Positions 8,956-60,537 of a stretch of DNA of 64,000 nucleotides are shown piece after piece; within the stretch, counting starts at the first letter, position 1, and every line of letters starts with the position of its first letter. This DNA is from a virus: positions 243,841 to 307,840 of the IMG/VR virus record IMGVR_UViG_3300041809_000571; one strand, given 5' to 3'. Under the pieces are notes generated by a model, which worked only from the letters and a program-made list of their open reading frames with translations, searched no databases and was not told where the DNA came from. A program made the position numbers and the translations under genes.

Positions 8956-9696
8956 ATTGGTTCTCCTTTTGAGTTGGTGCGTGACTCACGTTCTAACGCC
9001 ACGGCGTAGTGAGCGCAAACAGAGGGAGTTGCCGCCCGCTCCAGTGGCTCGGTAAAAGAGTTACTAGCTCGGCTCCCATTGCTGAGTAAATCCGTGGTCA
9101 AGCAGCGCTGATTCGCATCACGCACCAAGCTATAATACTGAAAATTTTGTGGACCTATAAGCGGAGTTCTGTGCCTCTTGCGAGGTGACAACCATTCGTC
9201 TAGGGCGGCCATTACTGGACGCCTCAAGCTCTCAACCCGAGGGTTATAGCGAACCGAGCAGGTTCATCCCCTCCTATTCGAGATTGCTCCCCGTGAAGAT
9301 TGCCCGTTTCACCCGGACTTAACCGGCTCGTCTCTGTTGCTCTAATTGTCGCAGTATTGCTACTGCGCCGGGGCGTTACCCCGCACGGTGCTCTGTGTAG
9401 CTCCGACTTTCCTCTCCCCCTTGCGGGGCAGTAGTTGTCCAGTCCACAAACTTTTTCCAAACTTAGGGTTATTGGGAGCGAAGATTCCCTTGGAGCCATC
9501 CGGGTCAAGGGCCTTCAAGGTCAGATAATAACTCATGCTCCCAATGCTCACGCCGTCACCTTACACCCACAAGGTTCATAATCCTGTTGCCAGCCGGGCG
9601 GTATACTCTTCATCCACCCCTTGACCTTGACCCTTACGGTACATGGCTTTTTGTGCTTACGGTGTTTGCATTTAGAACATTTGGCGGAGGCCATAC

Positions 9697-9909
9697 TTAC
9701 CCACCCAACGGTTCAGCCCCTAAAGACATTGCAAGGGCTGTAATTTTATTAACCGTCAACGTCGCCAAGTCCAAAGTTTTACCCATCATCTCAATTTGGG
9801 CTTGAGTCCACGTGGATGCATCAACGGCGTCGTTATTCCAAGAGATTTGGAGTTTACCCCTTGCTGAAACTAATTGCTTACGAACCTCTAAGATTCCTTC
9901 TAACGTCAT
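9697..9909 (-). CDS. small hypothetical protein
   Basis: ATG at 9909 (MTLEGILEVRK...) lies about 25 nt downstream of the GGTGGTATTATATAG promoter-like motif. The listed GTG start at 9939 overlaps that motif. Confidence 0.3.
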   Translation of the reverse strand: MTLEGILEVRKQLVSARGKLQISWNNDAVDASTWTQAQIEMMGKTLDLATLTVNKITALAMSLGAEPLGG

Positions 9910-9971
9910 TTGAAACCCCCAAGACAAAAGTACCCACACTATATAATACCACCGAGAGTCAAAAATGATGG

Positions 9972-10640
9972 TTATTTAATTTCTCTTGCTTTTTCATAGA
10001 CCGCTCGAATGCTCGCAAAGCGTTCTCTGGTAGACAGGGTATGCGGGTGGTAGGTGATGATATCGTTTTCCGGGAGGGGCATCCTCCCCTCCGTCATACT
10101 ATAACGGTCGTCATGCTCCGTGGGGCAGACGCTATTGAACGATAATGTTGCCCATACCCACCAGTCCTCGACATTGTAACAACGGGTGTCCCTTGAACAA
10201 GGCGCTGAGGCGAGGAACTCCAACGCCCTCCTGCTAAGCCAGTACCCGGAGCCTCCATAGGGCTGGTTGTTTCCCCCCACTCCCCGTTGTCCTATATGGT
10301 CATGCCCCTCGAATCCCGAGCGGAGCAGACGGGGAACGCAGGCATAGGTGTCAACATCACATTTGAAAGCGTGGTCATAGCCGTGGGCTACCACCCACTG
10401 GTATGCAGCTTGGACCTTGGACGAGAGGTCCGCATACGTGTCGGAAACATCTAATGAGACCTCATCGTCATCTGCATTCTCTAGTCTAGGATTACCTAGA
10501 AAAAAGCGATAATCAACTGGGCACCCCATCAACCATGTTTCCCTGAGTTGCTGCTGCCAATGACGATGGGCATGGCAACTCATGATGGATATCAGCGGTT
10601 GCAACTGCTCACCCCCACCCTTAAGTGGTTTCCATACCAA
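9972..10640 (-). CDS. Putative Fringe-like (GT31-type) glycosyltransferase
   Basis: Acidic DxD-like ADDDEVSLDVSD plus PYGGSGYWLSRRALEFL resembling the Fringe GGAGFCISR motif. Weak, motif-level only. Confidence 0.4.
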   Translation of the reverse strand: MVWKPLKGGGEQLQPLISIMSCHAHRHWQQQLRETWLMGCPVDYRFFLGNPRLENADDDEVSLDVSDTYADLSSKVQAAYQWVVAHGYDHAFKCDVDTYACVPRLLRSGFEGHDHIGQRGVGGNNQPYGGSGYWLSRRALEFLASAPCSRDTRCYNVEDWWVWATLSFNSVCPTEHDDRYSMTEGRMPLPENDIITYHPHTLSTRERFASIRAVYEKAREIK

Positions 10641-10643
10641 ACC

Positions 10644-11066
10644 CTATGCGCTTCCTACGGCAAACACATTCAAGTAGGCACGATAAATCTCGTAAGCGGC
10701 ACTGTTACCACTCGTACATCTTACACGAAGGTCATAAACGTCTCCTTCGTTCATGATGTCAAGACCCCCTACGGAAATGGGGAACCCTGTGGGGTCAGAG
10801 TTCTCAGCAATCAGATAATTCATCAAACTGCCATTTTTGAATACGGCCAATTGAAAATCCCCACTTCCAGTAACCGCCGTTACAAAAACAGCAATCATTA
10901 CGGGAACCGCAAAAGACACGGTTGAAGTAAGGGAACCCGTCGTGGTGTTCCCAGTCATTCCTGAGTTTTGAACGACGGTCCACGAAGCCTGCTCAAACTG
11001 ATACCACGTATCTTCCGTGTCCAAGGAAAGAGTCTGATACCCTGTAGCTGTCTCACCGTATGTCAT
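10644..11066 (-). CDS. hypothetical protein (possible beta-sandwich fiber-tip protein)
   Basis: 140-aa ORF with no clear motif. Confidence 0.35.
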   Translation of the reverse strand: MTYGETATGYQTLSLDTEDTWYQFEQASWTVVQNSGMTGNTTTGSLTSTVSFAVPVMIAVFVTAVTGSGDFQLAVFKNGSLMNYLIAENSDPTGFPISVGGLDIMNEGDVYDLRVRCTSGNSAAYEIYRAYLNVFAVGSA

Positions 11067-11156
11067 AAAATTCCCCCTTAAAATAAATTCTTCTTCCTAT
11101 AACCACTTTGAAAGTCTAAACTTTCAATCTCTTTGGACAGGAGGCATATCAGACCT

Positions 11157-11606
11157 ATGTCCAAAAGATTAACCTACGCTTATACGGCAGGACTCATTGA
11201 CGGCGAGGGGACCATATCTCTCGTTTACAAGTACAAAAGCAATCCCTACCGCTGGCCGACCATAACCGTGCCAAGCTGCACAAAGGAACTCACCGACTTC
11301 CTGAAAAATCAATTTGGCGGGTGTATCTCCAACAAGAGGCCGGACAAGGTGGGACATACACCCTCAAAGACATGGCGACTCGCCGGGGACAAATCCTTAG
11401 CACTTCTTAATCTACTCCTTCCTTACCTTAAGGAACCCGATAAGATAAGGCGGGCAAAGTTGCTGATTGATAAATACAAGAGGTTGACGCCAAGGAATGG
11501 AAGGTACACTACGGAACAACGTATCAAAAAGTTGGAATTCGAGCATCAGTTCTTGGAGGGAGGAAAGACGAGCCGACAGACCACCCGTATACGCTGGGCA
11601 AGTTAG
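11157..11606 (+). CDS. LAGLIDADG homing endonuclease (single-motif, I-CreI-like size)
   Basis: LTYAYTAGLIDGEGTISL motif. ATG at 11157 follows GGAGG; the ORF-track start at 11133 is TTG. The stop lies 2 nt from the tmRNA 3' end on the opposite strand. Confidence 0.75.
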   Translation: MSKRLTYAYTAGLIDGEGTISLVYKYKSNPYRWPTITVPSCTKELTDFLKNQFGGCISNKRPDKVGHTPSKTWRLAGDKSLALLNLLLPYLKEPDKIRRAKLLIDKYKRLTPRNGRYTTEQRIKKLEFEHQFLEGGKTSRQTTRIRWAS

Positions 11607-11607
11607 T

Positions 11608-11961
11608 TGGTGGAGGCGACGGGGAGTTGAACCCCGTGTCCGAAAAGTGTCACAACAAGAAGACTACACGCTTATCCTGCTTCGTACTGCTCTTTGCCAT
11701 GACTCTGCTGAAACAGGCATATCAGAACCACGGTGCAAGCCTTCATCTCGCCGGATATCGGCTACATCCCCGGTCGCAGCCTCTCTATCGGCGCTTGGCC
11801 TCTACCCGACAGGCTAAAGCAGAGCAAGCGTGCCTAATCTAGCGATTAAGCAAATGCATATTGCGCTGTGGCAATTGCGTTGTTAACCCTTGTTACGGGC
11901 AGGGTAACCTCCCGGCGTGCCTTCCTGTAATGAGCGCTCCCGTCGAAACCAGAACGCCCCC
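11608..11961 (-). ncRNA. ssrA: tmRNA (ssrA-like transfer-messenger RNA), about 354 nt, CCA encoded
   Basis: Minus-strand 5' end GGGGGCGUUCUGGUUUCGACGGGA matches the tmRNA consensus GGGGnUGAUUCUGGAUUCGACGGG. The 3' end GGACACGGGGUUCAACUCCCCGUCGCCUCCACCA is a tRNA-Ala-like T-arm/acceptor with G3:U70, A73 and CCA. A candidate internal tag frame reads AAC AAC GCA AUU GCC ACA GCG CAA UAU GCA UUU GCU UAA (...NNAIATAQYAFA*). Confidence 0.8.
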
Positions 11962-11963
11962 AC

Positions 11964-11980
11964 ACTTACATAATACCACC
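11964..11980 (-). promoter_or_regulatory. Extended -10-like promoter motif GGTGGTATTATGTAAGT, 3 to 19 nt upstream of the tmRNA 5' end
   Basis: TGG-TATTAT sits immediately 5' of the mature tmRNA 5' end, and the same motif family recurs at other gene starts. Confidence 0.5.
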
Positions 11981-12006
11981 AACTACGAGCTTTCGTTGGT
12001 TTTTAC

Positions 12007-12100
12007 TTGGTCCCGGTGTTGGGAGTCAAACCCAATCCATGCCCTAATCTGGGGCTTATGCAGTTTATAAGACTGCTCGTTCGGTCGCAAACTTCACCGG
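12007..12100 (-). tRNA. tRNA-like, type II (long variable arm), isotype undetermined (anticodon loop CUUAUAA, UAU?)
   Basis: Acceptor CCCGGUG/CACCGGG, T-arm UUGGG-UUUGACU-CCCAA, A73-CCA, variable arm GCCC-CAGAUUA-GGGC, anticodon stem GCAGU/ACUGC. The D-arm folds poorly by hand. Confidence 0.4.
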
Positions 12101-12104
12101 GGAA

Positions 12105-12181
12105 TTGGCACCGTGGACGGGACTTGAACCCGCTAATGACCGGCTTGAAGGGCCGGTGACTCGGCGCTTTGTCTTCCACGG
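12105..12181 (-). tRNA. tRNA-Glu(UUC)-like (anticodon loop CCUUCAA, C at position 33)
   Basis: Acceptor ACCGUGG/CCACGGU, T-arm GCGGG-UUCAAGU-CCCGU, G73-CCA, anticodon stem CCGGC/GCCGG. Confidence 0.5.
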
Positions 12182-12185
12182 TATC

Positions 12186-12260
12186 TTGGTAGCCCTGCCG
12201 GGACTCTAACCCGGTTCCGCTGGTTGAAAGCCAGCCATCCTAAACCATAGACGACAAGGC
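12186..12260 (-). tRNA. tRNA-Glu(UUC)
   Basis: Acceptor GGCCUUG/CAGGGCU (two G-U pairs), anticodon arm GCUGG-CUUUCAA-CCAGC, T-arm CCGGG-UUAGAGU-CCCGG, A73-CCA. The D-arm resembles E. coli tRNA-Glu. Confidence 0.6.
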
Positions 12261-12412
12261 CAGAAATTTGAGGCTGCGAAATATCCACGTTTGGGAGTAC
12301 AAGGACCGGTAGCAGCCTCGGTTTATCGGTACCCACTACGTGGCTCAGTTTAGACCGCCGTCCTGATACGACCACGATTGAAACCTGCGGTCAAGGTGTA
12401 TCGTGGCCTCGC

Positions 12413-12487
12413 TTGGAGCACCCGGAGAGAATCGAACTCCCGCATAAAGGGTTTGCAGCCCTCTCCCTTCCCACTTGGGTACGAGTG
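12413..12487 (-). tRNA. tRNA-Cys(GCA)
   Basis: Acceptor GCACUCG/CGGGUGC, anticodon arm GAGGG-CUGCAAA-CCCUU, T-arm GGGAG-UUCGAUU-CUCUC, U73 (Cys identity element), CCA. Confidence 0.7.
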
Positions 12488-12570
12488 CAAATTTGGCTCG
12501 CCTACCACTCTCTCAGTGGCTTTGAACCGTGCGGGCAGCTTTCACCGCCGCAGGCTATCTGGCTCGCAAT

Positions 12571-12645
12571 GTGGAGCACCTGAACGGAATCGAACCGTTG
12601 CATAGCTGTTTTGCAGACAGCCGCCTTTCCACTTGGCGACAGGTG
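12571..12645 (-). tRNA. tRNA-Cys(GCA), second divergent copy
   Basis: Acceptor GCACCUG/CAGGUGC, anticodon arm GCUGU-CUGCAAA-ACAGC, T-arm AACGG-UUCGAUU-CCGUU, U73-CCA. Confidence 0.7.
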
Positions 12646-12647
12646 CG

Positions 12648-12881
12648 TTATTCTTCTTCCTCAGCCGACTCCTTACTTAGGTCCACCGGCTGGCGAATCT
12701 TGGCAATCTTTCTTTCGGTGGATACGGAGAGTCTCACGTACTCCACTCGTGCCCAATGGACGGTGTGAACCGCCATCCACCCGACCACCACCCATTTAGA
12801 AAAGATGGTGAAAATCCTGTCGGGGTTGATGCTTATAAACCAAAGCACCACGCACATAAACCAATGCCACAAAGAAATCAT
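12648..12881 (-). CDS. small hydrophobic protein (2 predicted TM helices) embedded in the tRNA array
   Basis: 77-aa ORF MISLWHWFMCVVLWFISI...FTIFSKWVVVGWMAVHTV with a GGGAGG RBS 4 nt upstream. It sits exactly in the gap between tRNA-Cys and tRNA-Glu. Confidence 0.35.
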   Translation of the reverse strand: MISLWHWFMCVVLWFISINPDRIFTIFSKWVVVGWMAVHTVHWARVEYVRLSVSTERKIAKIRQPVDLSKESAEEEE

Positions 12882-12931
12882 CTAGCCTCCCGTCATGCAG
12901 TGTGTTCCCCCAAAGCATGGCGGGGGTGAAA

Positions 12932-13008
12932 CTGGTAGCCCCGGTGGGATTCAAACCCACGGTCTCCGCCTTGAGAGGGCGGCGTCCTTGGTCGCTAGAC
13001 GACGAGGC
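12932..13008 (-). tRNA. tRNA-Glu(CUC)
   Basis: Acceptor GGCCUCG/CGGGGCU, anticodon arm CCGCC-CUCUCAA-GGCGG, T-arm GUGGG-UUUGAAU-CCCAC, A73-CCA. Confidence 0.65.
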
Positions 13009-13079
13009 CATGTCTTAGCAGGGCACGACTGGCTACGATGAGTTTATGTCAGCGGGAAGCCTGATTCTGTGCCCTAAGT

Positions 13080-13155
13080 TTGGTGGACGGGAAGGGAGTT
13101 GAACCCTCAGTCTCTCGGGTGCGAGCCGAGCGCTTTCCCAGTTAAGCTACCTGCC
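13080..13155 (-). tRNA. tRNA-Ala(CGC)
   Basis: Acceptor GGGCAGG/CCCGUCC with G3:U70 (Ala identity) and one A5-C68 mismatch, D-stem GCUU/AAGC, anticodon arm CUCGG-CUCGCAC-CCGAG, T-arm GAGGG-UUCAACU-CCCUU, A73-CCA. Confidence 0.65.
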
Positions 13156-13160
13156 CAAAT

Positions 13161-13290
13161 GCAATCGTGGAGGGAATCGAACCCTCTCTCCTGTTGCAGC
13201 CTGCAAGCCGCTACAGTTCTTCCCCCCGTTACTTCCAAAGCCAGACAGCCTTCGGTCTTGCAGGACCTATTGCCATCTCGGGGGCTGAAA
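13161..13290 (-). ncRNA. Unresolved structured RNA with a perfect tRNA T-arm (GAGGG-UUCGAUU-CCCUC at 13169..13185) but no identifiable 7-bp acceptor partner or encoded CCA
   Basis: The T-arm is seen directly. Searches for a 5' acceptor strand complementary to CACGAUU failed, so this may be a type-II, intron-containing or degenerate tRNA. Confidence 0.3.
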
Positions 13291-13291
13291 C

Positions 13292-13367
13292 TTGGTGCGC
13301 CGAGCAGGACTCGAACCTGCGACCTCTTCCGTGTCAGGGAAGCGCTCTAACCACTGAGCTACCAGCG
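13292..13367 (-). tRNA. tRNA-Val(GAC)
   Basis: Acceptor GCGCUGG/UCGGCGC, D-arm GCUC-AGUGGUUA-GAGC, anticodon arm CUUCC-CUGACAC-GGAAG, T-arm GCAGG-UUCGAGU-CCUGC, A73-CCA. Confidence 0.7.
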
Positions 13368-13468
13368 CAAACGCATGGATTTCCCTACGGTCGCCTAGAC
13401 CCCGTCTGTTTATGTACTGCTTTGCGGGGCACTGCTACTGGTTAGCTCGCTACTAGGGCCATGCGTAA

Positions 13469-13546
13469 AATGGCGGTCCATACGGGATTTGAACCCGTGG
13501 TCTTCTCCGTGACAGGGAGACGAGGACTCCAGACTCCTCCAATAGA
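13469..13546 (-). tRNA. tRNA-Asp(GUC)
   Basis: Acceptor GGUCUAU/AUGGACC, D-stem GAGG/CCUC, anticodon arm UCUCC-CUGUCAC-GGAGA, T-arm ACGGG-UUCAAAU-CCCGU, G73 (Asp-type), CCA. Confidence 0.7.
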
Positions 13547-13552
13547 CCGAAA

Positions 13553-13631
13553 CTTGGCGGTGAGTACGGGATTTGAACCCGTGTTTCTACCGTGACAGGG
13601 TAGTGTCTTAGGCCGGGCTAGACCAACCCAC
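13553..13631 (-). tRNA. tRNA-Asp(GUC), second divergent copy in tandem
   Basis: Acceptor GGUGGGU/ACUCACC, anticodon arm CUACC-CUGUCAC-GGUAG, T-arm ACGGG-UUCAAAU-CCCGU, G73-CCA. Confidence 0.65.
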
Positions 13632-13723
13632 CGTAATCGGACCCTATTAACCCGCTCATGGGCGGAGGCTTTCGCCGGGGCGGCACATAGCACAAATACT
13701 ATCCCGTTCGTATGCCGCTAAAC

Positions 13724-13798
13724 TTGGTGGACCTAAAGGGAATCGGACCCTTGACCTCTCGGCTGCCGACCGAGCGCTCTCCCGCTGAGCTACAGGCC
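13724..13798 (-). tRNA. tRNA-Ala(GGC) (C at position 33)
   Basis: Acceptor GGGCCUG/UAGGUCC with G3:U70, D-arm GCUC-AGCGGGA-GAGC, anticodon arm CUCGG-UCGGCAG-CCGAG, T-arm AAGGG-UCCGAUU-CCCUU, A73-CCA. Confidence 0.55.
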
Positions 13799-13960
13799 CA
13801 CAAAAATTCGGGACAACCGGCTGGTTAGGCTAGTCATCCGCAGGTTCTACTGCTCGGGGTCCCTTTTCAGGGGAACCACCACAGTCCCCCTTACTGAGGG
13901 ACCCTGCTGGTAGAACCTCGCCACTCGTCAGCTTCGACAGCCCTTAGAGTGACTACAATC

Positions 13961-14034
13961 TTGGAGCGGGTGACGGGACTCGAACCCGTCTCTACAGCTT
14001 GGAAGGCTGCGGCACAACCTCTATACCACACCCG
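13961..14034 (-). tRNA. tRNA-Gly(UCC)
   Basis: Perfect acceptor GCGGGUG/CACCCGC, anticodon arm GCAGC-CUUCCAA-GCUGU, T-arm ACGGG-UUCGAGU-CCCGU, U73-CCA. Confidence 0.7.
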
Positions 14035-14125
14035 CAAATCTTGTGAGGACATTGACGCAGCCCCCTGTTTACGTTGACCGGCGTGTCAGAGCCGGTGTCC
14101 TGCCGCTGGACCTCAGCGGACTTAC

Positions 14126-14199
14126 TTGGTGGAGCTACGGGGATTTGAACCCCGATTCCTTGCGTGCAAGGCAAGTGTCCTGCCGTTAGACGATAGTCC
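14126..14199 (-). tRNA. tRNA-Ala(UGC)
   Basis: Acceptor GGGACUA/UAGCUCC with G3:U70 and one A4-C69 mismatch, anticodon arm CUUGC-CUUGCAC-GCAAG, T-arm CGGGG-UUCAAAU-CCCCG, A73-CCA. Confidence 0.55.
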
Positions 14200-14204
14200 C
14201 AAAC

Positions 14205-14279
14205 TTGGAGCGGGCGGTGGGGTTCGGACCCACGACCTCTTCCTTGGCAAGGAAGCATTCTACCACTGAACTACGCCCG
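14205..14279 (-). tRNA. tRNA-Gly(GCC)
   Basis: Perfect acceptor GCGGGCG/CGCCCGC, D-arm GUUC-AGUGGUA-GAAU, anticodon arm CUUCC-UUGCCAA-GGAAG, T-arm GUGGG-UCCGAAC-CCCAC, U73-CCA. The overall sequence closely resembles E. coli tRNA-Gly(GCC). Confidence 0.75.
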
Positions 14280-14351
14280 CAAACCGCCAAGTAGGTTCTT
14301 AACCAATATGCATCGGGTCTTGGACCGTTCCTGCATTACCCTTGGCGAAAT

Positions 14352-14430
14352 ATGGTGCGCCGTGAAGGAATTGGACCTTCGACCTCTCGCTTGTGGAGCG
14401 AGCGCTCTAAACCGGGCTGAGCTAACAGCG
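14352..14430 (-). tRNA. tRNA-Val(CAC) (C at position 33; long D-loop)
   Basis: Acceptor GCGCUGU/ACGGCGC, D-arm GCUC-AGCCCGGUUUA-GAGC, anticodon arm CUCGC-UCCACAA-GCGAG, T-arm GAAGG-UCCAAUU-CCUUC, A73-CCA. Confidence 0.55.
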
Positions 14431-14438
14431 CATCGAAC

Positions 14439-14513
14439 TTGGTACCCACTGAGAGAATCGAACTCCCGACATCCTCCTTGTAAGAGAGGCGGTCTTCCAC
14501 TGGCCTAAGCGGG
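14439..14513 (-). tRNA. tRNA-Val(UAC)
   Basis: Acceptor GCCCGCU/AGUGGGU (two G-U pairs), anticodon arm CCUCU-CUUACAA-GGAGG, T-arm GGGAG-UUCGAUU-CUCUC, A73-CCA. Confidence 0.6.
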
Positions 14514-14526
14514 CAAATCTTGTACT

Positions 14527-14558
14527 AAAAACAAAAAAGGCGGCTTTTCAGCCGCCTT
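14527..14558 (-). terminator. Intrinsic (rho-independent) terminator on the minus strand: GGCGGCU-GAAA-AGCCGCC followed by UUUUUUGUUUUU
   Basis: GC-rich 7-bp stem with a 4-nt loop and an 11-nt U-tract, read on the reverse complement. It lies 13 nt upstream of the first tRNA of the array. Confidence 0.7.
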
Positions 14559-14686
14559 CGGGGGTCCTTGCTTGGATTTTCTATCCAAGCCCTCCCGAAG
14601 GCGAGGTATCGCCTCCCTCACACACTGCGGCGACCGCTTCTATCAAGTCAACCGGGTTTGTGATGGCCGTTTTCATGTTCATCTCG

Positions 14687-14706
14687 CTTCTATATAATAC
14701 TGTCGG
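14687..14706 (-). promoter_or_regulatory. Promoter-like motif CAGTATTATATAG (minus strand), one of two recurring motifs between the NADAR-region genes and the tRNA array
   Basis: Member of the recurring AGTATTATA motif family listed in the findings. Confidence 0.4.
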
Positions 14707-14882
14707 TAGTTCAAAAACTTCAAAAATTTGCGATAGACTTGACGGCGGCTCACTTGCGGGCGTGCAACCAAAGCTGCCTTGGTCTCCCGGTTGGCTCCGG
14801 TCTCACATTCTTATCTGCGAGTCTCCCCTACCAAGTTCCCTTGGCTTCATCCGGGGTATCTTCGGCCCCGACTACGGAGCCT

Positions 14883-14902
14883 CCGTCAAGTCTCTCACTT
14901 AC
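14883..14902 (-). promoter_or_regulatory. Extended -10-like motif CGTGGTATAATGTAAGTGAG (minus strand)
   Basis: TGG-TATAAT, nearly identical to the motif upstream of the tmRNA and of the 9909 gene. Confidence 0.45.
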
Positions 14903-14917
14903 ATTATACCACGAAAT

Positions 14918-15229
14918 TCAGGATTTTGAGGAAAAAAGTTTTCCTTCCTTCGCCCGGATGACATGCTCTCGGAGGTCATTCACCCTGTAGACCCCATACA
15001 TCCACAAAACACCTTGAATAAACCCTATCCACCGATTGACCTTAGCCTCATCATAATGCTCGGCTTTAGTGCCGTTGGCGTAGTTGAACATCTCCTCCAC
15101 CATCCACGCAGCGTGACGGGCCTGCTCGATACCGGGGTGAGGGCTTTTCGGCTCACCCTCAAGCCGTTGGGGCAATATCCACAATCGTTGGAACTCGCTC
15201 CGGTAGAACTCTAACAATTGGTATTCCAC
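14918..15229 (-). CDS. hypothetical protein
   Basis: 103-aa ORF. Its N-terminal 70 nt overlap the NADAR gene, so the true start may be the internal Met (MVEEMF...) near 15103. Confidence 0.35.
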   Translation of the reverse strand: MEYQLLEFYRSEFQRLWILPQRLEGEPKSPHPGIEQARHAAWMVEEMFNYANGTKAEHYDEAKVNRWIGFIQGVLWMYGVYRVNDLREHVIRAKEGKLFSSKS

Positions 15230-15683
15230 CCTGTGCCTCCGCTCGTATGAGCATCAAAATCTTACCTAAGTAGTTGTATTTCTGTTTCTTAGCACACTTG
15301 GCACAAAGGCAAATGCCCCAAAAATTATCGTGCCAATAATTGGTTTCCTCCAACACCATATAGCCGGTTCCCACCAGCTTGAGAAGGAGGAAAGTGTTCC
15401 TAAACTTCTGCCGGACGAGTTCCTCCATGATGTTAATGTTTACACTGTACCAAAGCGGCCACAGATGCCCAGCTTTGGTCAGTTTTTTGGCGAGCTTCTT
15501 TGCTTCGCCGGGGGTCATCCCGACAGCCCGGAACTGCTCCCGGATAGTGGGGTCAAGGAACTTGGCGGCTTGATAGGCGTGCTCTACCGAGGCGTACTCC
15601 AGCCCGTACAGATACACCGGGCAGGGGTAGTAGAAATTGGAACAGAAATCGAGAACCCCGGAGAACGCTATATCACGCCACAT
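15159..15683 (-). CDS. NADAR-domain protein (YbiA/DUF1768 family)
   Basis: Diagnostic NADAR motifs: FCSNFYYPCPVYLYGLEYASVEHAYQAAKF and EETNYWHDNFWGICLC...KYNYLGKILMLIRAE. Confidence 0.8.
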   Translation of the reverse strand: MWRDIAFSGVLDFCSNFYYPCPVYLYGLEYASVEHAYQAAKFLDPTIREQFRAVGMTPGEAKKLAKKLTKAGHLWPLWYSVNINIMEELVRQKFRNTFLLLKLVGTGYMVLEETNYWHDNFWGICLCAKCAKKQKYNYLGKILMLIRAEAQGGIPIVRVLPERVPTIVDIAPTA

Positions 15684-16227
15684 CCTTGCCCTCCTCGTTC
15701 AGTATCAGATAAGGCTTGCGCACATGGGCGCTGAAATACGTCGCCGCCATGAGCGCTTTTTCCAGCCGGGGCTTGGCGGAATCATCAGGGGTGACACTGA
15801 GCGCCCCGAGAGCATAAGGGCTTCCGCAGCCGATTGCCTCAAAGCCATCTACCCGCTCGAATACTTGAAAGTCTCCCTCAAAGCGGAAGATATGCCCCTT
15901 GAAGGCCACGAGGAATATCCCGGTGCTGCTATGCTCATCCTGTTGTGCCATGAAGCCGCCCACATTGAACGTCCGGCGCACCGCCTCAATAAACTCGGTT
16001 GCCATGAACTTTATCAGTGGGACCTTGGGGTCCTTATAGACAGGGGGTTCCAGCTTGTATTGAAGAAGCTGTGTCATACGCATCGACCCCACTGCTCCAA
16101 TCAAGTAGGGTCCATTAAAGAATGCCTTCCTGTTGGTGAGAGTCACCATATCCTCACCATCAGAGGCCGCAGAATCAGCGCCCATCCAAACCTTTCCGTT
16201 CTCAACCACGGCTGCTACACAAGACAT
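15673..16227 (-). CDS. HslV/proteasome-beta-like Ntn hydrolase (peptidase T1 family)
   Basis: MSCVAAVVENGKVWMGADSAAS aligns to the HslV N-terminus [21 protein letters not shown], and IGCGSPYALGAL aligns to HslV IGSGGPYAQAAA. Ser2 (after Met removal) would be the N-terminal nucleophile. Confidence 0.6.
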   Translation of the reverse strand: MSCVAAVVENGKVWMGADSAASDGEDMVTLTNRKAFFNGPYLIGAVGSMRMTQLLQYKLEPPVYKDPKVPLIKFMATEFIEAVRRTFNVGGFMAQQDEHSSTGIFLVAFKGHIFRFEGDFQVFERVDGFEAIGCGSPYALGALSVTPDDSAKPRLEKALMAATYFSAHVRKPYLILNEEGKDVA

Positions 16228-17385: not shown

Positions 17386-19290
17386 CTACAAGTCACACGA
17401 GCCGTTGGAACAGGCGACTTCCTTCATCGCCGTGGTGTGGTCGTCTTTCTCAAACTCAGGAAGCTTCGACCAGTCAATTTCCGGCATCTTGAGATTTGCC
17501 GCCCGGTACTCCACTTCGGATATCTCCGTGTAGGGAGCCTGCTTGTAGATGTGATTAGTGAACGGCAGGAAGGCTATCCCGCCGATTTGGTCAAAGTGCT
17601 TGTAGACCCATGTAGCCACTTCCAGCCATTCATGGTCCCGGACATAGATGGTCGTACTGGGGTTATGTTCGGTCCAGTGCTGACGGTAAGTGAGGTAGAG
17701 TTCAAGCTGTTCGATAGCGGTCAGCTTGTTCCGAGTGATGGACCCCTCGGGGGAGGCCAAGGGGAAGAAGAATACATCCACATCGTTGGGCTTCGTGACA
17801 TCCGGCTCATTGGGAACTCCACAAGCCTTGAGGAATGCTCCGATGGGATTCTTACGGTCTTCCCGGATAGCCCGCATGAGGTATTCGCTAAACCTCGTGT
17901 GAATGCCCGGCGAGCAGTTGACAAGCTGGCTCACAGTGCCGGACGGCTTGACGCAGGTGACGGCGACACTGGGGGTGATGCCCAACCTTTCCGCCCATTC
18001 CACGTTGGTAGCAACGGCATGTAGACGAAGGTGGTCAAGAAGAACGGTAAGCTCCTTGCCGTTGGTGGAAAGCAGTGGATTGTCCATAATACCCGAGAGT
18101 GAAACGCCCAATAGGCGCTCCTCCTCGGCGTTTTTCTGCCAGTCCTTACGCAGGTACCTAAATTCCGTTAGCGTCGATTGTAGGGTGCCTAGAATCGCCG
18201 CAAGGCGTATTTTACGTTCAAGGCTGGCGGCGTCGTCGGATGGACGGCAGACAACTTCGGTGAGGTTGCACAACCCCTTCGACCGGAGGATGATTTCGCC
18301 GCAAGGGTTGATTCCAAACTCAATACCCTCCCACTTACGGCGACCTACGGACTTGGCTTTCTTGACGGCAGCATCCCGGTTGTAGATGCCCCGTTCCCCG
18401 GACCGGCTCTCACAGAGTGACAACCACTCCCGGATGAAGGTGACCATCTCTGGTTTTTCGGTGTAAACGGCGGAGTTGTTGGCTAAGGCCCGTTGAGGAT
18501 TTTCAATCCACCACTGACCGTTCTTAGCGTTGCGCATCCGGTCATCGGATAGGTTGGAGAGGGATATCATTGCCGACCGGCGCACACCACCTGAAACCAC
18601 GATGTCGGCTACCATACACATGAGGTCATGACATTCGAGGGACGTGAGCTTGCGTCCGGCTGCATTCTTGAAAAGTTGGACAGTGAATTTGAAGAGACGG
18701 TCTAGCGGCCCCGGCCCGGATGCTCTGCCGCCGAAAGTCTTAAGCGGCATACCAGCCGGGCGGACAGAGGAGAGGTCCCATTGTGGAATTGAACCACCGT
18801 AGAGCAAGGCGATGAGTTGGCGGAAACCAGAAGCCCAGCCAATTTTTGAATCACGAATCTTGATGATGGTATCAACGGGGTAGAAGTTCTCGGCAACGGT
18901 AGGAAGTTGGTTTACATATTGGCGCTCTACGGAGAAACCTAAGCCTGCACCGCACATACTGATATACATGGCTTCGTCAAATGCACGGGGGTCATCAATG
19001 GCAAGATAAGAGCAGTTATAGGCGGCGACTTCGTCTTTTTCAAGTGCCTTCCCAGCGGTCACCATGGCTCGCATAGAGGGCATTACTTCCAGATTAAGAA
19101 TAGCGTTTTCCAACTCTTTTGAAGTCTCTTCTCGAATATCAGTGGGGATTCTTTTGGATATAAATTCGATGTATCTGTGGACGGTTTCTGACCAGTCTTC
19201 CCGGCGACCCTTTTCGGGAATCCAACGGGCGTAGCGGGATTTGAAAATGTAATTCTGAAACGGCGTAACGGCACCACTCTTCAAAGTCAT
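17386..19290 (-). CDS. Ribonucleotide reductase, single-chain (class II adenosylcobalamin-dependent-like)
   Basis: 634 aa with the RNR active-site region NPCGEIILRSKGLCNLTEV and an overall RNR large-subunit-like sequence. The class assignment (NrdJ-like rather than class I) is inferred from size and single-chain nature. Confidence 0.75.
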   Translation of the reverse strand: MTLKSGAVTPFQNYIFKSRYARWIPEKGRREDWSETVHRYIEFISKRIPTDIREETSKELENAILNLEVMPSMRAMVTAGKALEKDEVAAYNCSYLAIDDPRAFDEAMYISMCGAGLGFSVERQYVNQLPTVAENFYPVDTIIKIRDSKIGWASGFRQLIALLYGGSIPQWDLSSVRPAGMPLKTFGGRASGPGPLDRLFKFTVQLFKNAAGRKLTSLECHDLMCMVADIVVSGGVRRSAMISLSNLSDDRMRNAKNGQWWIENPQRALANNSAVYTEKPEMVTFIREWLSLCESRSGERGIYNRDAAVKKAKSVGRRKWEGIEFGINPCGEIILRSKGLCNLTEVVCRPSDDAASLERKIRLAAILGTLQSTLTEFRYLRKDWQKNAEEERLLGVSLSGIMDNPLLSTNGKELTVLLDHLRLHAVATNVEWAERLGITPSVAVTCVKPSGTVSQLVNCSPGIHTRFSEYLMRAIREDRKNPIGAFLKACGVPNEPDVTKPNDVDVFFFPLASPEGSITRNKLTAIEQLELYLTYRQHWTEHNPSTTIYVRDHEWLEVATWVYKHFDQIGGIAFLPFTNHIYKQAPYTEISEVEYRAANLKMPEIDWSKLPEFEKDDHTTAMKEVACSNGSCDL

Positions 19291-59604: not shown

Positions 59605-60537
59605 ATGTTCATTTATCTTATCGTTAATCACGAGACCGGCAAATACTATGTCGGTCAGCACAAAGGAAGCAATCTTAAGAAGTATCTTCAACAGAAGTTT
59701 CACCATGCTCAGAGGGGAATTTCCGAACGGTCCCATCTTTACAATTCAATGCGAGCGCACCCAGACCCCAAGGTCTGGTCTATTCATGCTCTCCGGTCGG
59801 ATATCCAGACCCGAGAAGAACTTGATGAGACCGAGCGGGACTTCATCAAATTTCTTAGGGCAACTGACCCTGAATATGGCTACAACATCTGCCGGGGAGG
59901 GGAAGGGTTTACCGGACCGCATTCTGCCGAAACCCGTAGGAAAATATCCAAAGCTGGCAGAAAATGGGCATTGGACCCGGCTAATGAAGAAGCTAAAAAG
60001 CTTCGTATAATGCGGTTACATGAAGCAAGAAAGAAGCATAAACGCCCCTCTGAGAATAAAGTTTGCCCGGTATGTCATACTCCATTCTCTGTTCCATTTG
60101 GTTGGAAAAATAGGATATATTGCTCACGATTTTGTTCTCTTCAACGATTAAGAACCACTGAATTTGAACAAGAACGATTGAACAGTCTTCGACAATCCCT
60201 TAAACTACCCAAGTCTCGTATTAATATGTCTACGGCTCAAGCTGTTAGACGAAAAGCGGAAAGAGAACGGGGAGTGAAACCCACCCCGCATATTTGGACT
60301 CAACAGGAACGAATCATACAAGCAGAACGAATGCGGTCCGTTGGTCATAAAAATAAAGGACGTACTTTATCGGACTTTCATAAACATACTATTTCTAATG
60401 CATTAAAAGGGTTAATGCGTGATGAAAAACGGAAAAACTCTCTCGATAAAGGCAGACACACTCGTTGGCATTCCTCACGAGGAGTTGTTAGTAAAGACTG
60501 CCGATTTTGTTTGGAGGGACTTTCCAAGCCTAATTAG
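59605..60537 (+). CDS. GIY-YIG homing endonuclease with a C-terminal Zn-finger / DNA-binding region
   Basis: MFIYLIVNHETGKYYVGQ (GIY...YVG), R...E and YNICRGGEG match GIY-YIG catalytic motifs; CPVCHTPF...YCSRFCS is a zinc finger. RBS AGGGAGGAAG. The ORF is inserted between tail genes and the ART-Nudix gene. Confidence 0.7.
   Translation: MFIYLIVNHETGKYYVGQHKGSNLKKYLQQKFHHAQRGISERSHLYNSMRAHPDPKVWSIHALRSDIQTREELDETERDFIKFLRATDPEYGYNICRGGEGFTGPHSAETRRKISKAGRKWALDPANEEAKKLRIMRLHEARKKHKRPSENKVCPVCHTPFSVPFGWKNRIYCSRFCSLQRLRTTEFEQERLNSLRQSLKLPKSRINMSTAQAVRRKAERERGVKPTPHIWTQQERIIQAERMRSVGHKNKGRTLSDFHKHTISNALKGLMRDEKRKNSLDKGRHTRWHSSRGVVSKDCRFCLEGLSKPN

What the first reader, a model, noticed from the sequence alone, without database searches (positions are those of the whole stretch)
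11608..11961. Phage-encoded tmRNA (ssrA) placed head-to-tail with a LAGLIDADG homing endonuclease and the tRNA array
The minus strand carries a textbook tmRNA. Its 5' end GGGGGCGUUCUGGUUUCGACGGGA matches the tmRNA consensus, and its 3' end has a tRNA-Ala-like T-arm, a G3:U70 acceptor and CCA. It is about 354 nt long and contains a candidate tag frame ...NNAIATAQYAFA-UAA. A virus carrying its own trans-translation RNA is uncommon. It implies that ribosome stalling on phage messages is a real constraint, for example the repetitive 1259-aa collagen-like gene or mRNAs cut by host nucleases. The tag ends in YAFA rather than the usual ALAA, which could change how tagged proteins are targeted by proteases. 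The gene has its own TGG-TATTAT promoter.
Basis: partly seen in the sequence, partly recalled or inferred. Interest (0 to 1): 0.8.

Follow-up and report, generated by a model that had tools for sequence, protein, structure and literature searches.

The report
Huge-phage tmRNA with homing-endonuclease neighbour
A very large soil or peat phage carries a real ribosome-rescue RNA (tmRNA), which is already known for big phages; its tag lacks the usual degradation ending, and a selfish endonuclease gene whose relatives also sit beside tmRNA genes lies against its 3' end.

Summary
Window 11608-11961 (minus strand) is a full-length one-piece tmRNA (Rfam RF00023, 124.4 bits, E 4e-48). The acceptor stem, G3:U70, CCA end, PK1 and tag frame are all present. 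Five phage homologues show 36 compensatory base pairs.

- The tag starts at GCC (nt 90) and reads ATAQYAFA.
- The LAGLIDADG gene (11157-11606) is on the plus strand. It converges on the tmRNA 3' end with a 1-nt gap, so it is not head-to-tail.
- The TGG-TATTAT promoter is unsupported.

Phage tmRNAs are already known from cluster C mycobacteriophages, Bacillus phage G and huge phages, so the core finding is a new member of a known kind.

Three points add interest:
- The tag matches Acidobacteriota-type tags (ANTQYAYAA) minus the last Ala, with Y changed to F. It ends in YAFA, which is the Mollicutes Lon-type ending.
- The endonuclease gene is absent from 98%-identical relatives. It coincides with a replaced, atypical 6-bp T stem, which makes default ARAGORN miss the gene. 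All seven of its homologues at 54% identity or more that have DNA context also lie beside tmRNA genes, one-piece or permuted.
- A bacterial-type RNase P RNA (9142-9450) lies downstream and is conserved across related huge-phage contigs.

The parts
11608..11961 (-). One-piece tmRNA (ssrA) gene, 354 nt
   Evidence: Rfam RF00023 at 124.4 bits over the full model. ARAGORN -ps gives the same coordinates. Among 5 phage homologues 90.2% of cells are paired and 36 pairs show compensatory change, with 0/500 shuffles reaching this and slid controls giving 5-9.
11846..11872 (-). Tag reading frame GCC ACA GCG CAA TAT GCA TTT GCT TAA, encoding ATAQYAFA*, with resume codon G90
   Evidence: ARAGORN tag call. 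The Rfam alignment places the consensus resume GCa on GCC. A86, G90 and C91 are invariant in 5 homologues. Synonymous changes relative to L002 (CAA/CAG, GCA/GCG) keep QYAFA.
11886..11914 (-). Pseudoknot PK1, with S1 CGGG/CCCG and S2 ACCCU/AGGGU, just upstream of the tag
   Evidence: A scripted H-type pseudoknot search finds the same architecture in L002 with compensatory changes, CGGU/ACCG and CCCAU/AUGGG. The Rfam alignment agrees.
11619..11637 (-). Atypical T arm ACGGGG-TTCAACT-CCCCGT (6-bp stem, 19 nt), a replaced patch relative to HEG-less relatives
   Evidence: Compared with L041, 10 of 21 columns differ here against 3 of 333 elsewhere, Fisher p = 1.2e-11. None of 128 related tmRNAs from the motif scans has a 19-nt arm. 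The Rfam score is 124.4 bits against 134.5 for the HEG-less allele.
11970..11978 (-). TGGTATTAT, an extended -10-like motif 9 nt upstream of G1. Promoter function is unproven.
   Evidence: Read from the sequence. The sigma-70 scan does not call it and there is no -35. The site is TATCAT in L016, and the upstream region is unrelated in the closest relative L041.
11157..11606 (+). Free-standing single-motif LAGLIDADG homing endonuclease gene (149 aa), convergent with the tmRNA. Its stop codon is 1 nt from the CCA end.
   Evidence: Motif YTAGLIDGEGT. phrog_5046 at 3e-19. Homologues carry PF00961/PF14528. A profile of 30 homologues hits I-CreI and I-MsoI at E 6.5e-7 to 5e-3. The gene is absent from 97.8%-identical tmRNA loci. 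Homologues lie beside tmRNA genes.
10644..11066 (-). ORF140 of unknown function, divergent partner of the endonuclease gene. It is present only in the endonuclease-bearing arrangement.
   Evidence: No Pfam or PHROG hit. The C-terminal 69 residues are 94% identical in L179, next to a 71%-identical HEG. A 148-aa ORF lies at the same 90-nt spacing in the P0002 contig. Absent from the L083-type relatives.
12187..14514 (-). Array of 14 tRNA genes directly upstream of the tmRNA on the same strand
   Evidence: ARAGORN and Rfam. A promoter-like site lies at 14723-14694 on the minus strand.
12012..12182 (-). Two further tRNA-like genes between the array and the tmRNA. One is at 12109-12182 (tRNA model, 39.9 bits). 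The other is at 12012-12101, has a long variable arm and a UAU anticodon, and is sub-threshold.
   Evidence: Rfam E-value search. ARAGORN at -ps80 calls a 94-nt tRNA-Ile(tat). It is conserved in L016 with compensatory changes.
9142..9450 (-). Bacterial type A RNase P RNA, on the same strand 2.2 kb downstream of the tmRNA. It is the likely 5'-processing ribozyme for the tRNAs and the tmRNA.
   Evidence: RF00010 at 191.2 bits, E 2.6e-60, full model. Homologues occur in 15 related viral loci, 430-460 nt after the tmRNA in L002 and L016.

Best explanation
Window 11608-11961 (minus strand) is a genuine one-piece tmRNA gene that belongs to a huge phage. The probable source is a 364-kb contig, and the likely hosts are Acidobacteriota.

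The gene sits in an RNA-gene island made of a tRNA array, two odd tRNA-like genes, the tmRNA and, further downstream, a bacterial-type RNase P RNA.

Inferred mechanism:
1. The tmRNA is transcribed with or after the tRNA array.
2. RNase P trims its 5' end. The CCA end is encoded in the gene.
3. Host AlaRS charges it with alanine through G3:U70.
4. Host SmpB and EF-Tu deliver it to ribosomes stalled on broken or stop-less mRNAs during infection.
5. Translation resumes at GCC (nt 90) and adds A-ATAQYAFA to the stalled polypeptide.

The tag is a host-type tag (ANTQYAYAA) that has lost the terminal Ala and now ends in YAFA. The phage version therefore probably frees ribosomes while sending tagged products to a different fate from the host's ClpXP route. 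They may go to Lon or escape degradation.

The adjacent 149-aa I-CreI-like LAGLIDADG gene is a separate, mobile passenger. It is a free-standing homing endonuclease lineage that travels with tmRNA genes. It probably cuts endonuclease-free phage genomes in or near the tmRNA 3' (T-arm/acceptor) DNA during co-infection. Repair then copies the endonuclease gene in, and this would explain the replaced 6-bp T arm in this allele.

What is shown: tmRNA identity, structure, tag frame, synteny, the presence/absence polymorphism of the endonuclease gene, the T-arm patch, and the recurrent association of endonuclease homologues with tmRNA genes.

What is inferred: expression, charging, tagging, protease fate and the endonuclease target.
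For: tmRNA identity and structure:
- RF00023 at 124.4 bits over the full model.
- Covariation in the P2 helix, PK1, the T arm and the PK helices: 36 compensatory pairs, 0/500 shuffles reaching this, slid controls 5-9.
- The acceptor stem with G3:U, and A86/G90, are invariant.
- The tag is preserved through synonymous changes.

Phage context:
- Baseplate_J, SLT, lysozyme and class II RNR in the window.
- The same order (RNR, tRNA array, tmRNA, RNase P RNA where detected) appears in eight IMG/VR contigs from four lineages.
- The source contig is 364,142 bp.

Host-type relation:
- The clade's 3' motif retrieves soil and peat bacterial tmRNAs with tags such as ANTQYAYAA.
- One such locus is Terriglobales-like.
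- These bacterial tmRNAs are 55-66% identical to the phage tmRNAs.
- The codon-level tag alignment shows loss of the last GCC codon and TAT changed to TTT.

YAFA ending:
- It occurs in only about 80 of 185,579 species genomes, in Erysipelotrichales/Bacilli and Patescibacteria.
- NYAFA is the Lon-specific ending of Mollicutes tags (PMC9382460).

Endonuclease gene:
- LAGLIDADG family membership.
- Absent from relatives whose tmRNA is 97.8% identical.
- T-arm patch with p = 1.2e-11.
- Homologues at 71, 66, 65, 55, 54 and 54% identity all lie within about 250 nt of a one-piece or permuted tmRNA gene. The permuted tmRNAs in L086 and L087 are confirmed by RF04321.
- LAGLIDADG genes inside tmRNA T-loop introns are known in bacteria (PMC11915505).
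Against: - No expression, charging or tagging data exist.
- No smpB was found among the window ORFs that were scanned. The other 300 kb or so of the genome was not seen.
- This allele's T stem is 6 bp, giving a 13-bp acceptor/T stack. That form is absent from 128 relatives, lowers both the CM and ARAGORN scores, and could impair EF-Tu or RNase P handling.
- No promoter or terminator specific to the gene was found.
- The protease fate of a YAFA-ending tag in Acidobacteriota is unknown.
- Permuted tmRNAs of other phages that also have an endonuclease neighbour keep AA endings, so degron loss is not general among phage tmRNAs.
- The endonuclease target was not determined. In permuted loci the gene lies on the other side of the T arm, 45-240 nt away.
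- The permuted cases may share ancestry and so may not be independent events.
Confidence: 0.75

Rival explanations
1. The window allele is a damaged or decaying tmRNA. Endonuclease-associated gene conversion replaced the T arm with a 6-bp stem that no longer fits EF-Tu, RNase P or the ribosome. On this view the gene is a hitch-hiking remnant in this particular phage, even if its relatives' copies work.
For: The T arm is 19 nt here and in none of 128 related tmRNAs. Rfam scores it 10 bits lower than the endonuclease-free allele. Default ARAGORN rejects it. From the literature as I recall it (Baron and Bock 1991, not checked here), a 13-bp acceptor/T helix is what keeps tRNA-Sec off EF-Tu.
Against: The extra positions form a Watson-Crick A-U pair, so the change is symmetric and keeps the helix and the 7-nt TTCAACT loop. 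Outside the T arm the gene differs from the L041 allele at only 3 positions. The same endonuclease protein (P0001) and gene neighbourhood are on record in at least two assemblies, but DNA for the tmRNA region was available only from the source contig. No other lesion is seen in the tag, PK1 or the acceptor stem.
Confidence: 0.15
2. The phage tmRNA acts mainly as a competitor or decoy for host trans-translation, for example by titrating SmpB or displacing the host tmRNA so that tagged proteins are not destroyed. It would then not be a simple supplement to rescue capacity.
For: A phage TLD-only tmRNA (DS6A) inhibits host tmRNA (PMC4131195). All four phage lineages here have lost the C-terminal Ala-Ala of the related host-type tags. 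No smpB was seen in the window.
Against: The full mRNA-like domain, PK1-PK4 and a conserved tag frame with synonymous substitutions are maintained. A pure decoy would not need them. This reading overlaps with, and does not exclude, the best explanation.
Confidence: 0.1
3. The position of the endonuclease gene next to the tmRNA is incidental. Free-standing HEGs accumulate in intergenic gaps of hypervariable phage regions, and the T-arm differences arise from ordinary mosaic recombination, not from tmRNA-directed homing.
For: The whole stretch between the tmRNA and the RNase P RNA is mosaic among relatives. ORF140, ORF222, ORF80 and the 47-aa zinc-ribbon ORF are reshuffled. The upstream flank is also swapped. 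Relatives carry other mobile elements, namely an in-frame insert in RNR and a GIY-YIG ORF. In L179 a tRNA-Gly separates the endonuclease gene from the tmRNA.
Against: All seven homologues at 54% identity or more with DNA context lie beside a tmRNA gene, across two non-equivalent gene topologies and with different genes on their far side. More distant homologues at 43-50% do not. The divergence is confined sharply to the T arm.
Confidence: 0.3
4. The tmRNA is bacterial chromosomal DNA, either a host ssrA at a prophage junction or a mis-assembly, and not a phage gene.
For: tmRNA genes are common integration sites for mobile elements (PMC11915505). The gene resembles Acidobacteriota tmRNAs.
Against: The gene is complete and embedded between phage genes on both sides in a 364-kb contig. 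The same synteny recurs in eight IMG/VR contigs from four diverged lineages. No integrase or bacterial housekeeping gene was seen in the 64-kb window. Bacterial loci with related tmRNAs look quite different: they have no tRNA arrays and are flanked by housekeeping genes.
Confidence: 0.02

Closest known systems
tmRNA genes of cluster C mycobacteriophages (Bxz1 and others), Bacillus phage G and metagenomic huge phages
   Same: A phage-encoded one-piece tmRNA that sits with a large tRNA gene set in a large myovirus-like genome (PMC4131195, PMC7162821).
   Different: No DNA similarity to any GenBank phage. The tmRNA is related to Acidobacteriota-type tmRNAs. The tag ends in YAFA instead of AA. This allele has a 6-bp T stem that default ARAGORN misses, and ARAGORN is the tool used in the huge-phage survey. 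An RNase P RNA lies downstream.
Acidobacteriota (Terriglobales-like) bacterial tmRNAs with tags ANTQYAYAA or ANTQFAYAA
   Same: Shared 3' motif AAGCRTGTAGTCT...TCGGAC...CGCCTCCACCA, 55-66% overall identity, and a tag that aligns codon by codon as ANxQYA.
   Different: The phage tag lacks the final Ala codon and has F or M where the bacteria have Y or L. The phage genes sit after tRNA arrays and not in bacterial housekeeping contexts.
Mollicutes ssrA tags ending in NYAFA (Lon-directed degron; Gur and Sauer 2008, as reviewed in PMC9382460)
   Same: The identical C-terminal YAFA. In those organisms it marks a switch from ClpXP to Lon, and such tags largely escape E. coli proteases.
   Different: The tmRNA lineages are unrelated (best nhmmer score 35 bits against YAFA-tag bacteria). 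The phage tag is 8 residues and not about 27. The protease specificity in the phage's host is untested.
LAGLIDADG homing endonuclease genes inside group I introns in the tmRNA T loop of bacteria (PMC11915505)
   Same: A LAGLIDADG-family HEG associated with the T-arm end of a tmRNA gene.
   Different: Here the HEG is free-standing, lies outside the RNA gene on the opposite strand, has no intron, and occurs in phages. Sequence relatedness to the intron-borne HEGs was not tested.
Phage T4 SegB, a free-standing GIY-YIG homing endonuclease in the T4 tRNA gene cluster (from my own knowledge: Brok-Volchanskaya et al. 2008)
   Same: A free-standing HEG embedded in a phage stable-RNA gene cluster that promotes inheritance of its neighbourhood by co-conversion.
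   Different: A different nuclease family (I-CreI-like LAGLIDADG homodimer), and the neighbour is a tmRNA and not tRNAs. Activity has not been shown.

Membership tests
tmRNA (Rfam RF00023, standard one-piece form) | Covariance-model score above the curated gathering threshold over the full model | tested here: met
   124.4 bits against 47, model positions 1-374 of 374, E 3.6e-48.
tmRNA (Rfam RF00023, standard one-piece form) | tRNA-Ala-like domain: 7-bp acceptor stem with G3:U70, discriminator A, 3' CCA | tested here: met
   GGGGGCG pairs with CGCCTCC, followed by ACCA. All 7 pairs, including G:U, are invariant in 5 homologues.
tmRNA (Rfam RF00023, standard one-piece form) | Canonical T arm (5-bp stem plus 7-nt T-psi-C loop) stacked on the acceptor stem | tested here: inconclusive
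   The loop TTCAACT is canonical, but the stem is 6 bp (ACGGGG/CCCCGT). Relatives have 5 bp, and none of 128 related genes has 19 nt. The functional effect is unknown.
tmRNA (Rfam RF00023, standard one-piece form) | A long P2 helix in place of the anticodon arm, and PK1 immediately 5' of the resume codon | tested here: met
   P2 helices are 95-100% paired with 8 compensatory pairs. PK1 S1 and S2 show compensatory changes in L002.
tmRNA (Rfam RF00023, standard one-piece form) | A short tag ORF that starts at a GCN resume codon with a conserved A at -4 and ends at a stop codon in helix 5 | tested here: met
   GCC at nt 90 with A86 invariant, TAA in the helix-5 stem, and synonymous changes between lineages.
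tmRNA (Rfam RF00023, standard one-piece form) | Works with SmpB and tags stalled polypeptides | not testable with these tools
   No SmpB family hit among the window ORFs scanned. The rest of the genome was not available, and no biochemical data exist.
LAGLIDADG homing endonucleases (single-motif, I-CreI-like homodimers) | LAGLIDADG motif with a catalytic acidic residue near the N-terminus of a protein of about 150 aa | tested here: met
   YTAGLIDGEGT at residues 9-19. A11, G12, L13, D15, G16, E17 and G18 are invariant in 30 homologues.
LAGLIDADG homing endonucleases (single-motif, I-CreI-like homodimers) | Significant sequence match to curated LAGLIDADG models or solved structures | tested here: met
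   A direct Pfam scan of the protein gave no hit at E <= 0.01. Homologues at E 1e-20 to 1e-34 carry PF00961/PF14528. The 30-sequence profile hits I-CreI variants and I-MsoI at E 6.5e-7 to 5e-3 over residues 3-106.
LAGLIDADG homing endonucleases (single-motif, I-CreI-like homodimers) | Mobility: presence/absence polymorphism between close relatives, with a co-conversion signature | tested here: met
   Absent from four contigs that share 93-98% identical flanks. The adjacent T-arm patch has p = 1.2e-11.
LAGLIDADG homing endonucleases (single-motif, I-CreI-like homodimers) | Site-specific double-strand cleavage of the endonuclease-free allele | not testable with these tools
   This needs a cleavage assay. 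The target is inferred only from the recurrent tmRNA neighbourhood.
Bacterial RNase P RNA, type A (RF00010); neighbouring feature | Covariance-model score above gathering, with the conserved P4 and core motifs | tested here: met
   191.2 bits against 100 over the full model. GAGGAAAGUC and ACAGAAC...GCUUA are present, and about 43 nt of peripheral helices are missing. Relatives score 186-208 bits.

The most novel reading that the evidence does not exclude
A clade of Acidobacteriota-infecting huge phages carries a self-contained stable-RNA island, and a mobile endonuclease lineage tracks one of its genes. The island would consist of:
- a tRNA array;
- a tmRNA whose tag has been re-engineered from the host type (…YAYAA) to a ClpXP-evading or Lon-type ending (…YAFA or …YAMA);
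- the phage's own RNase P ribozyme to mature these RNAs.

Separately, a lineage of free-standing I-CreI-like homing endonucleases would home specifically to tmRNA genes of both one-piece and permuted topology, remodelling the T arm as it spreads.
Probability: 0.3. Interest if true: 0.75.

Novelty: new member of a known kind. Interest (0 to 1): 0.5.

Why it matters
Phage tmRNAs have been catalogued, but why phages carry them is not explained. This case gives a concrete, testable contrast. The phage tag is homologous to the likely host-phylum tag, yet all four phage lineages lack the C-terminal Ala-Ala that ClpXP reads. That suggests the phage wants ribosome release without the host's degradation outcome.

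The case also shows that a standard pipeline (default ARAGORN, as used in huge-phage surveys) misses alleles with a remodelled T arm.

A family of free-standing LAGLIDADG genes appears to track tmRNA genes. This could provide new rare-cutting enzymes with a defined conserved target.

The RNase P RNA conserved in the related contigs is a separate lead. I found no paper reporting a phage-encoded RNase P RNA.

Tried and rejected
- ARAGORN at default thresholds found no tmRNA on the whole window or on 11500-12100. This is explained by the 6-bp T stem, and -ps recovers the gene.
- Megablast of 9000-15000, and blastn of the tmRNA and of the RNase P RNA, against 50,697 GenBank phages gave no match.
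- Pfam on the endonuclease ORF gave no hit. A single-sequence PDB search gave only non-significant LAGLIDADG hits. The question was settled with homologues and a profile.
- tblastn of the endonuclease protein against all 84 loci held at that point and the window found no second copy.
- I tried to infer the host from bacteria that use YA[FLIM]A-ending tags. The hits were Erysipelotrichales/Bacilli and Patescibacteria with unrelated tmRNAs (35 bits or less), so I rejected them as donors. The clade-specific 3' motif scan pointed to Acidobacteriota instead.
- My first motif scan used a wrong gap length and found nothing. It was corrected.
- The sigma-70 promoter and terminator scan found nothing at the tmRNA.
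- The supplements of PMC11915505 held no tag tables.
- Literature searches for a phage-encoded RNase P RNA found nothing. That is absence of evidence only.
- I did not build a custom covariance model, because the alignment is 368 columns and calibration would exceed the time limit.
- No SmpB or RnpA family hit was found among the window ORFs scanned. Small ORFs and the remaining genome were not covered.
Full report
**1. Observation**

Rfam cmscan of the window finds RF00023 (tmRNA) at 11608-11961 on the minus strand. The score is 124.4 bits against a gathering score of 47, E 3.6e-48, and the whole model is covered (repeated).
- the 5' end GGGGGCGTTCTGGTTTCGACGGGA;
- a 7-bp acceptor stem with G3:U70;
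- a TTCAACT T loop;
- an encoded ACCA end;
- a length of 354 nt.

ARAGORN at default thresholds reports 15 tRNAs but no tmRNA. With thresholds lowered to 95% it reports the same coordinates and the tag ATAQYAFA*.

**2. Structure and tag**

I aligned the window gene with four homologues from related phage contigs.
- RNAalifold predicts 96 pairs, and 36 of them show compensatory changes.
- On that structure 90.2% of cells pair. With partners slid by 1-3 columns the figure is 39-46%.
- The slid controls give 5-9 compensatory pairs. None of 500 shuffles reaches the observed values.
- PK1 (S1 CGGG/CCCG, S2 ACCCU/AGGGU) recurs in L002 as CGGU/ACCG and CCCAU/AUGGG.

The resume codon is GCC at nt 90. 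The Rfam alignment puts the consensus resume codon there. A86, G90 and C91 are invariant. From my own knowledge, A86 at -4 is the key frame-setting base in E. coli tmRNA. The encoded tag is therefore ATAQYAFA and not NNAIATAQYAFA. Between the window and L002 the Q and A codons change synonymously while QYAFA is kept, which argues for selection on the coding function.

**3. Context: a huge phage**

The window encodes Baseplate_J, SLT and DPBB lytic transglycosylases, a phage lysozyme, a class II RNR, NADAR, a GIY-YIG/NUMOD3 ORF and many very large ORFs with no family match. It has no near match in GenBank phages.

The endonuclease protein is found with 100% identity on an ENA contig of 364,142 bp, whose tRNA and tmRNA layout matches the window.

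RNR-based retrieval from IMG/VR gave 80 loci. Eight contigs from four lineages carry a tmRNA downstream of the RNR gene and a tRNA array. Their tags are ATAQYAFA, ANMQYAFA, AKPLAMYAMA and AEPLSMYAMA. The gene is therefore inherited within a phage clade and is not a recent pick-up or an assembly artefact.

Phage tmRNAs are already documented in cluster C mycobacteriophages, Bacillus phage G and DS6A (PMC4131195) and in huge phages (PMC7162821). The core finding is a new member of a known kind.

**4. Origin and the YAFA ending**

A genome-wide pattern scan for one-piece tmRNAs with tags ending in YA[F/L/I/M]A* found only 82 stretches among 185,579 species. Almost all are from Erysipelotrichales/Bacilli and Patescibacteria (for example GNRTNYAFA). 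Their tmRNAs are unrelated to the phage's, with nhmmer scores of 35 bits or less.

A scan with the clade's own 3' motif retrieved 120 metagenomic stretches. Nearly all are bacterial soil or peat tmRNAs with tags such as ANQQMAYAA, ANTQYAYAA, ANTQFAYAA and GNSQLALAA. One of these (L192) is flanked by hopanoid and c-di-GMP genes. Its HpnI homologues at about 80% identity are labelled Terriglobales.

Phage and Terriglobales-type tmRNAs are 55-66% identical, which is as close as the phage lineages are to each other. The tags align codon by codon:
- Terriglobales type: GCC AAC ACG CAG TAT GCC TAT GCT GCC TAA (ANTQYAYAA);
- phage L002: GCC AAC ATG CAG TAT GCG TTT GCT TAA (ANMQYAFA);
- window: GCC ACA GCG CAA TAT GCA TTT GCT TAA (ATAQYAFA).

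The phage tag is thus a host-type tag without the last Ala and with Y changed to F. All four phage lineages end in YA(F/M)A.

A review states that tags commonly end in LAA and are degraded mainly by ClpXP. It also states that Mollicutes tags end in NYAFA and are recognised by Lon, and that such tags largely escape E. coli proteases (PMC9382460). It remains untested.

**5. The LAGLIDADG gene**

The ORF runs on the plus strand from ATG 11157 to TAG 11604-11606. It converges on the tmRNA 3' end with one base between the stop codon and the CCA end. The evidence for the family is:
- the motif YTAGLIDGEGT;
- a match to phrog_5046 at 3e-19;
- 823 homologues, many of which carry PF00961/PF14528;
- a 30-sequence profile that hits I-CreI and I-MsoI at E 6.5e-7 to 5e-3.

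It is a single-motif, I-CreI-like protein, presumably a homodimer.

The gene is absent from four IMG/VR contigs whose tmRNA is 97.8% identical to the window's. In those contigs a 47-aa zinc-ribbon ORF starts 9 nt after the CCA end. Those relatives carry other mobile elements that the window lacks: an in-frame insert of about 326 aa in the RNR gene and a GIY-YIG/NUMOD3 ORF.

**6. T-arm patch**

Between the window and the endonuclease-free allele only 3 of 333 aligned columns differ outside the T arm, while 10 of 21 differ within it (Fisher p = 1.2e-11). The window has ACGGGG-TTCAACT-CCCCGT, a 6-bp stem. The relatives have CTGGG-TTCAAAT-CCCAG.

All 128 related tmRNAs recovered by the motif scans have 17-nt arms. 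The change costs 10 bits in Rfam (124.4 against 134.5) and explains why default ARAGORN misses the gene.

I read this as a co-conversion tract or a target-immunity change linked to the endonuclease gene. It could also reduce function, since it makes a 13-bp acceptor/T stack.

**7. The endonuclease lineage tracks tmRNA genes**

I looked up genomic contexts for homologues of the endonuclease.
- P0004 (65% identity) lies 44-87 nt from a permuted tmRNA on contigs of 462 kb and 203 kb (RF04321 at 77.4 and 64.1 bits).
- P0006 (66%), P0010 (55%) and P0009 (54%) lie next to permuted tmRNAs called by ARAGORN.
- P0008 (54%) lies about 240 nt from a permuted tmRNA that I read directly from the sequence.
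- P0003 (71%) has the arrangement tmRNA 3' end, 4 nt, tRNA-Gly(CCC), then the endonuclease stop codon just beyond the tRNA's CCA end, followed by ORF140-like and ORF222-like genes.
- More distant homologues at 43-50% identity have no convincing tmRNA neighbour.

Counting the window, seven of seven homologues at 54% identity or more with DNA context sit beside a tmRNA gene. They are always on the opposite strand and nearest to the T-arm/acceptor part.

LAGLIDADG genes inside T-loop group I introns of bacterial tmRNA genes are known (PMC11915505). A free-standing, phage-borne counterpart is a plausible new variant, but the target has not been shown. One other endonuclease-adjacent tmRNA (L180) also has an odd, 16-nt T arm.

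**8. Expression signals**

TGGTATTAT lies 9 nt upstream of G1, but there is no -35 element and the scan does not call it. The upstream flank resembles that of L016, where the site reads TATCAT. In the closest relative the flank is unrelated.

A promoter-like site lies upstream of the tRNA array at 14723-14694. No terminator follows the tmRNA. Co-transcription with the array, followed by processing, is at least as likely as a promoter of its own.

**9. Neighbouring RNA genes**

- Between tRNA-Glu and the tmRNA lie two further tRNA-like genes. One at 12109-12182 scores 39.9 bits with the tRNA model. The other at 12012-12101 has a long variable arm and a UAU anticodon, and is conserved in L016 with compensatory changes.
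- A type A RNase P RNA lies 2.2 kb downstream at 9142-9450 (191 bits).
- Homologues of this RNase P RNA occur in 15 of the related loci, from contigs up to 463 kb. In L002 and L016 they lie 430-460 nt after the tmRNA.
- I found no paper describing a phage-encoded RNase P RNA.

**10. Verdict**

The tmRNA itself is a new member of a known kind. The added value lies in three things: the host-type tag with its degron ending removed, the tmRNA-tracking endonuclease lineage with the remodelled T arm, and the adjacent RNase P RNA. All functional steps (expression, charging, tagging, protease fate, endonuclease target) are inferred and not shown.

Noticed in passing
window 9142-9450 (-); also L002 19864-20177, L016 19387-19693, L007 17591-17911, L017 16072-16370, L083 2428-2737: A full-length bacterial type A RNase P RNA (RF00010, 186-208 bits) is encoded in this phage. 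nhmmer finds homologues in 15 related IMG/VR loci, from contigs up to 463 kb, usually within or after the tRNA array. The RNA is 309 nt and lacks about 43 nt of peripheral helices. I found no paper reporting a phage-encoded RNase P RNA.
   Followed up: partly
window 12012-12101 (-) and 12109-12182 (-): Two tRNA-like genes that default ARAGORN and the first Rfam pass missed. One is a 94-nt species with a long variable arm and a UAU anticodon (tRNA-Sec model 30 bits, sub-threshold). It is conserved in L016 with compensatory changes, and ARAGORN calls a similar 93-nt tRNA-Ile(tat) in L088. The other is a second Glu-like tRNA (39.9 bits) with C at position 33.
   Followed up: partly
L086 3651-3914, L087 3701-3918, L088 2599-2933, L091 105-502, L092 636-1072, L180 about 60-380: Other large phage-like contigs (up to 462 kb) carry permuted, two-piece tmRNA genes with tags such as ANAPKALAMAAAA, AEPMAFAAAA and AETPQYAMAA. 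Each has a homologue of the window's LAGLIDADG gene divergently upstream.
   Followed up: partly
L041 10001-12883 and 12934-13692 (relatives of window 17386-19290): In the closest relatives the class II RNR ORF is 960 aa, against 634 aa in the window. The difference is an in-frame insert of about 326 aa that looks like an intein. A 252-aa GIY-YIG/NUMOD3 ORF follows the RNR gene. Both are absent from the window.
   Followed up: partly
window 9551-9694 (-): A 47-aa Cys-rich (CxxC...CxC) zinc-ribbon-like ORF is 94% conserved in relatives but sits in a different place. It comes directly after the tmRNA in the relatives and directly before the RNase P RNA in the window.
   Followed up: partly
window 59605-60537 (+): A second putative free-standing homing endonuclease ORF (310 aa) lies among the structural genes. 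Its GIY-YIG and NUMOD3 hits are weak.
   Followed up: no
window 15159-16227 (-): A NADAR-domain ORF (PF08719, 5.5e-17) and an HslV-family peptidase-like ORF (phrog_1040, 4e-20) lie between the RNR gene and the tRNA array.
   Followed up: no
It has 25 runs of at least 5 G-X-Y triplets covering 549 residues, and 23% of its residues are Gly.
   Followed up: yes
window 11950-12110 compared with L041 and L016: The 150 nt upstream of the tmRNA match L016, a distant lineage, and not L041, whose tmRNA is 97.8% identical. Both flanks of the tmRNA are therefore mosaic.
   Followed up: partly
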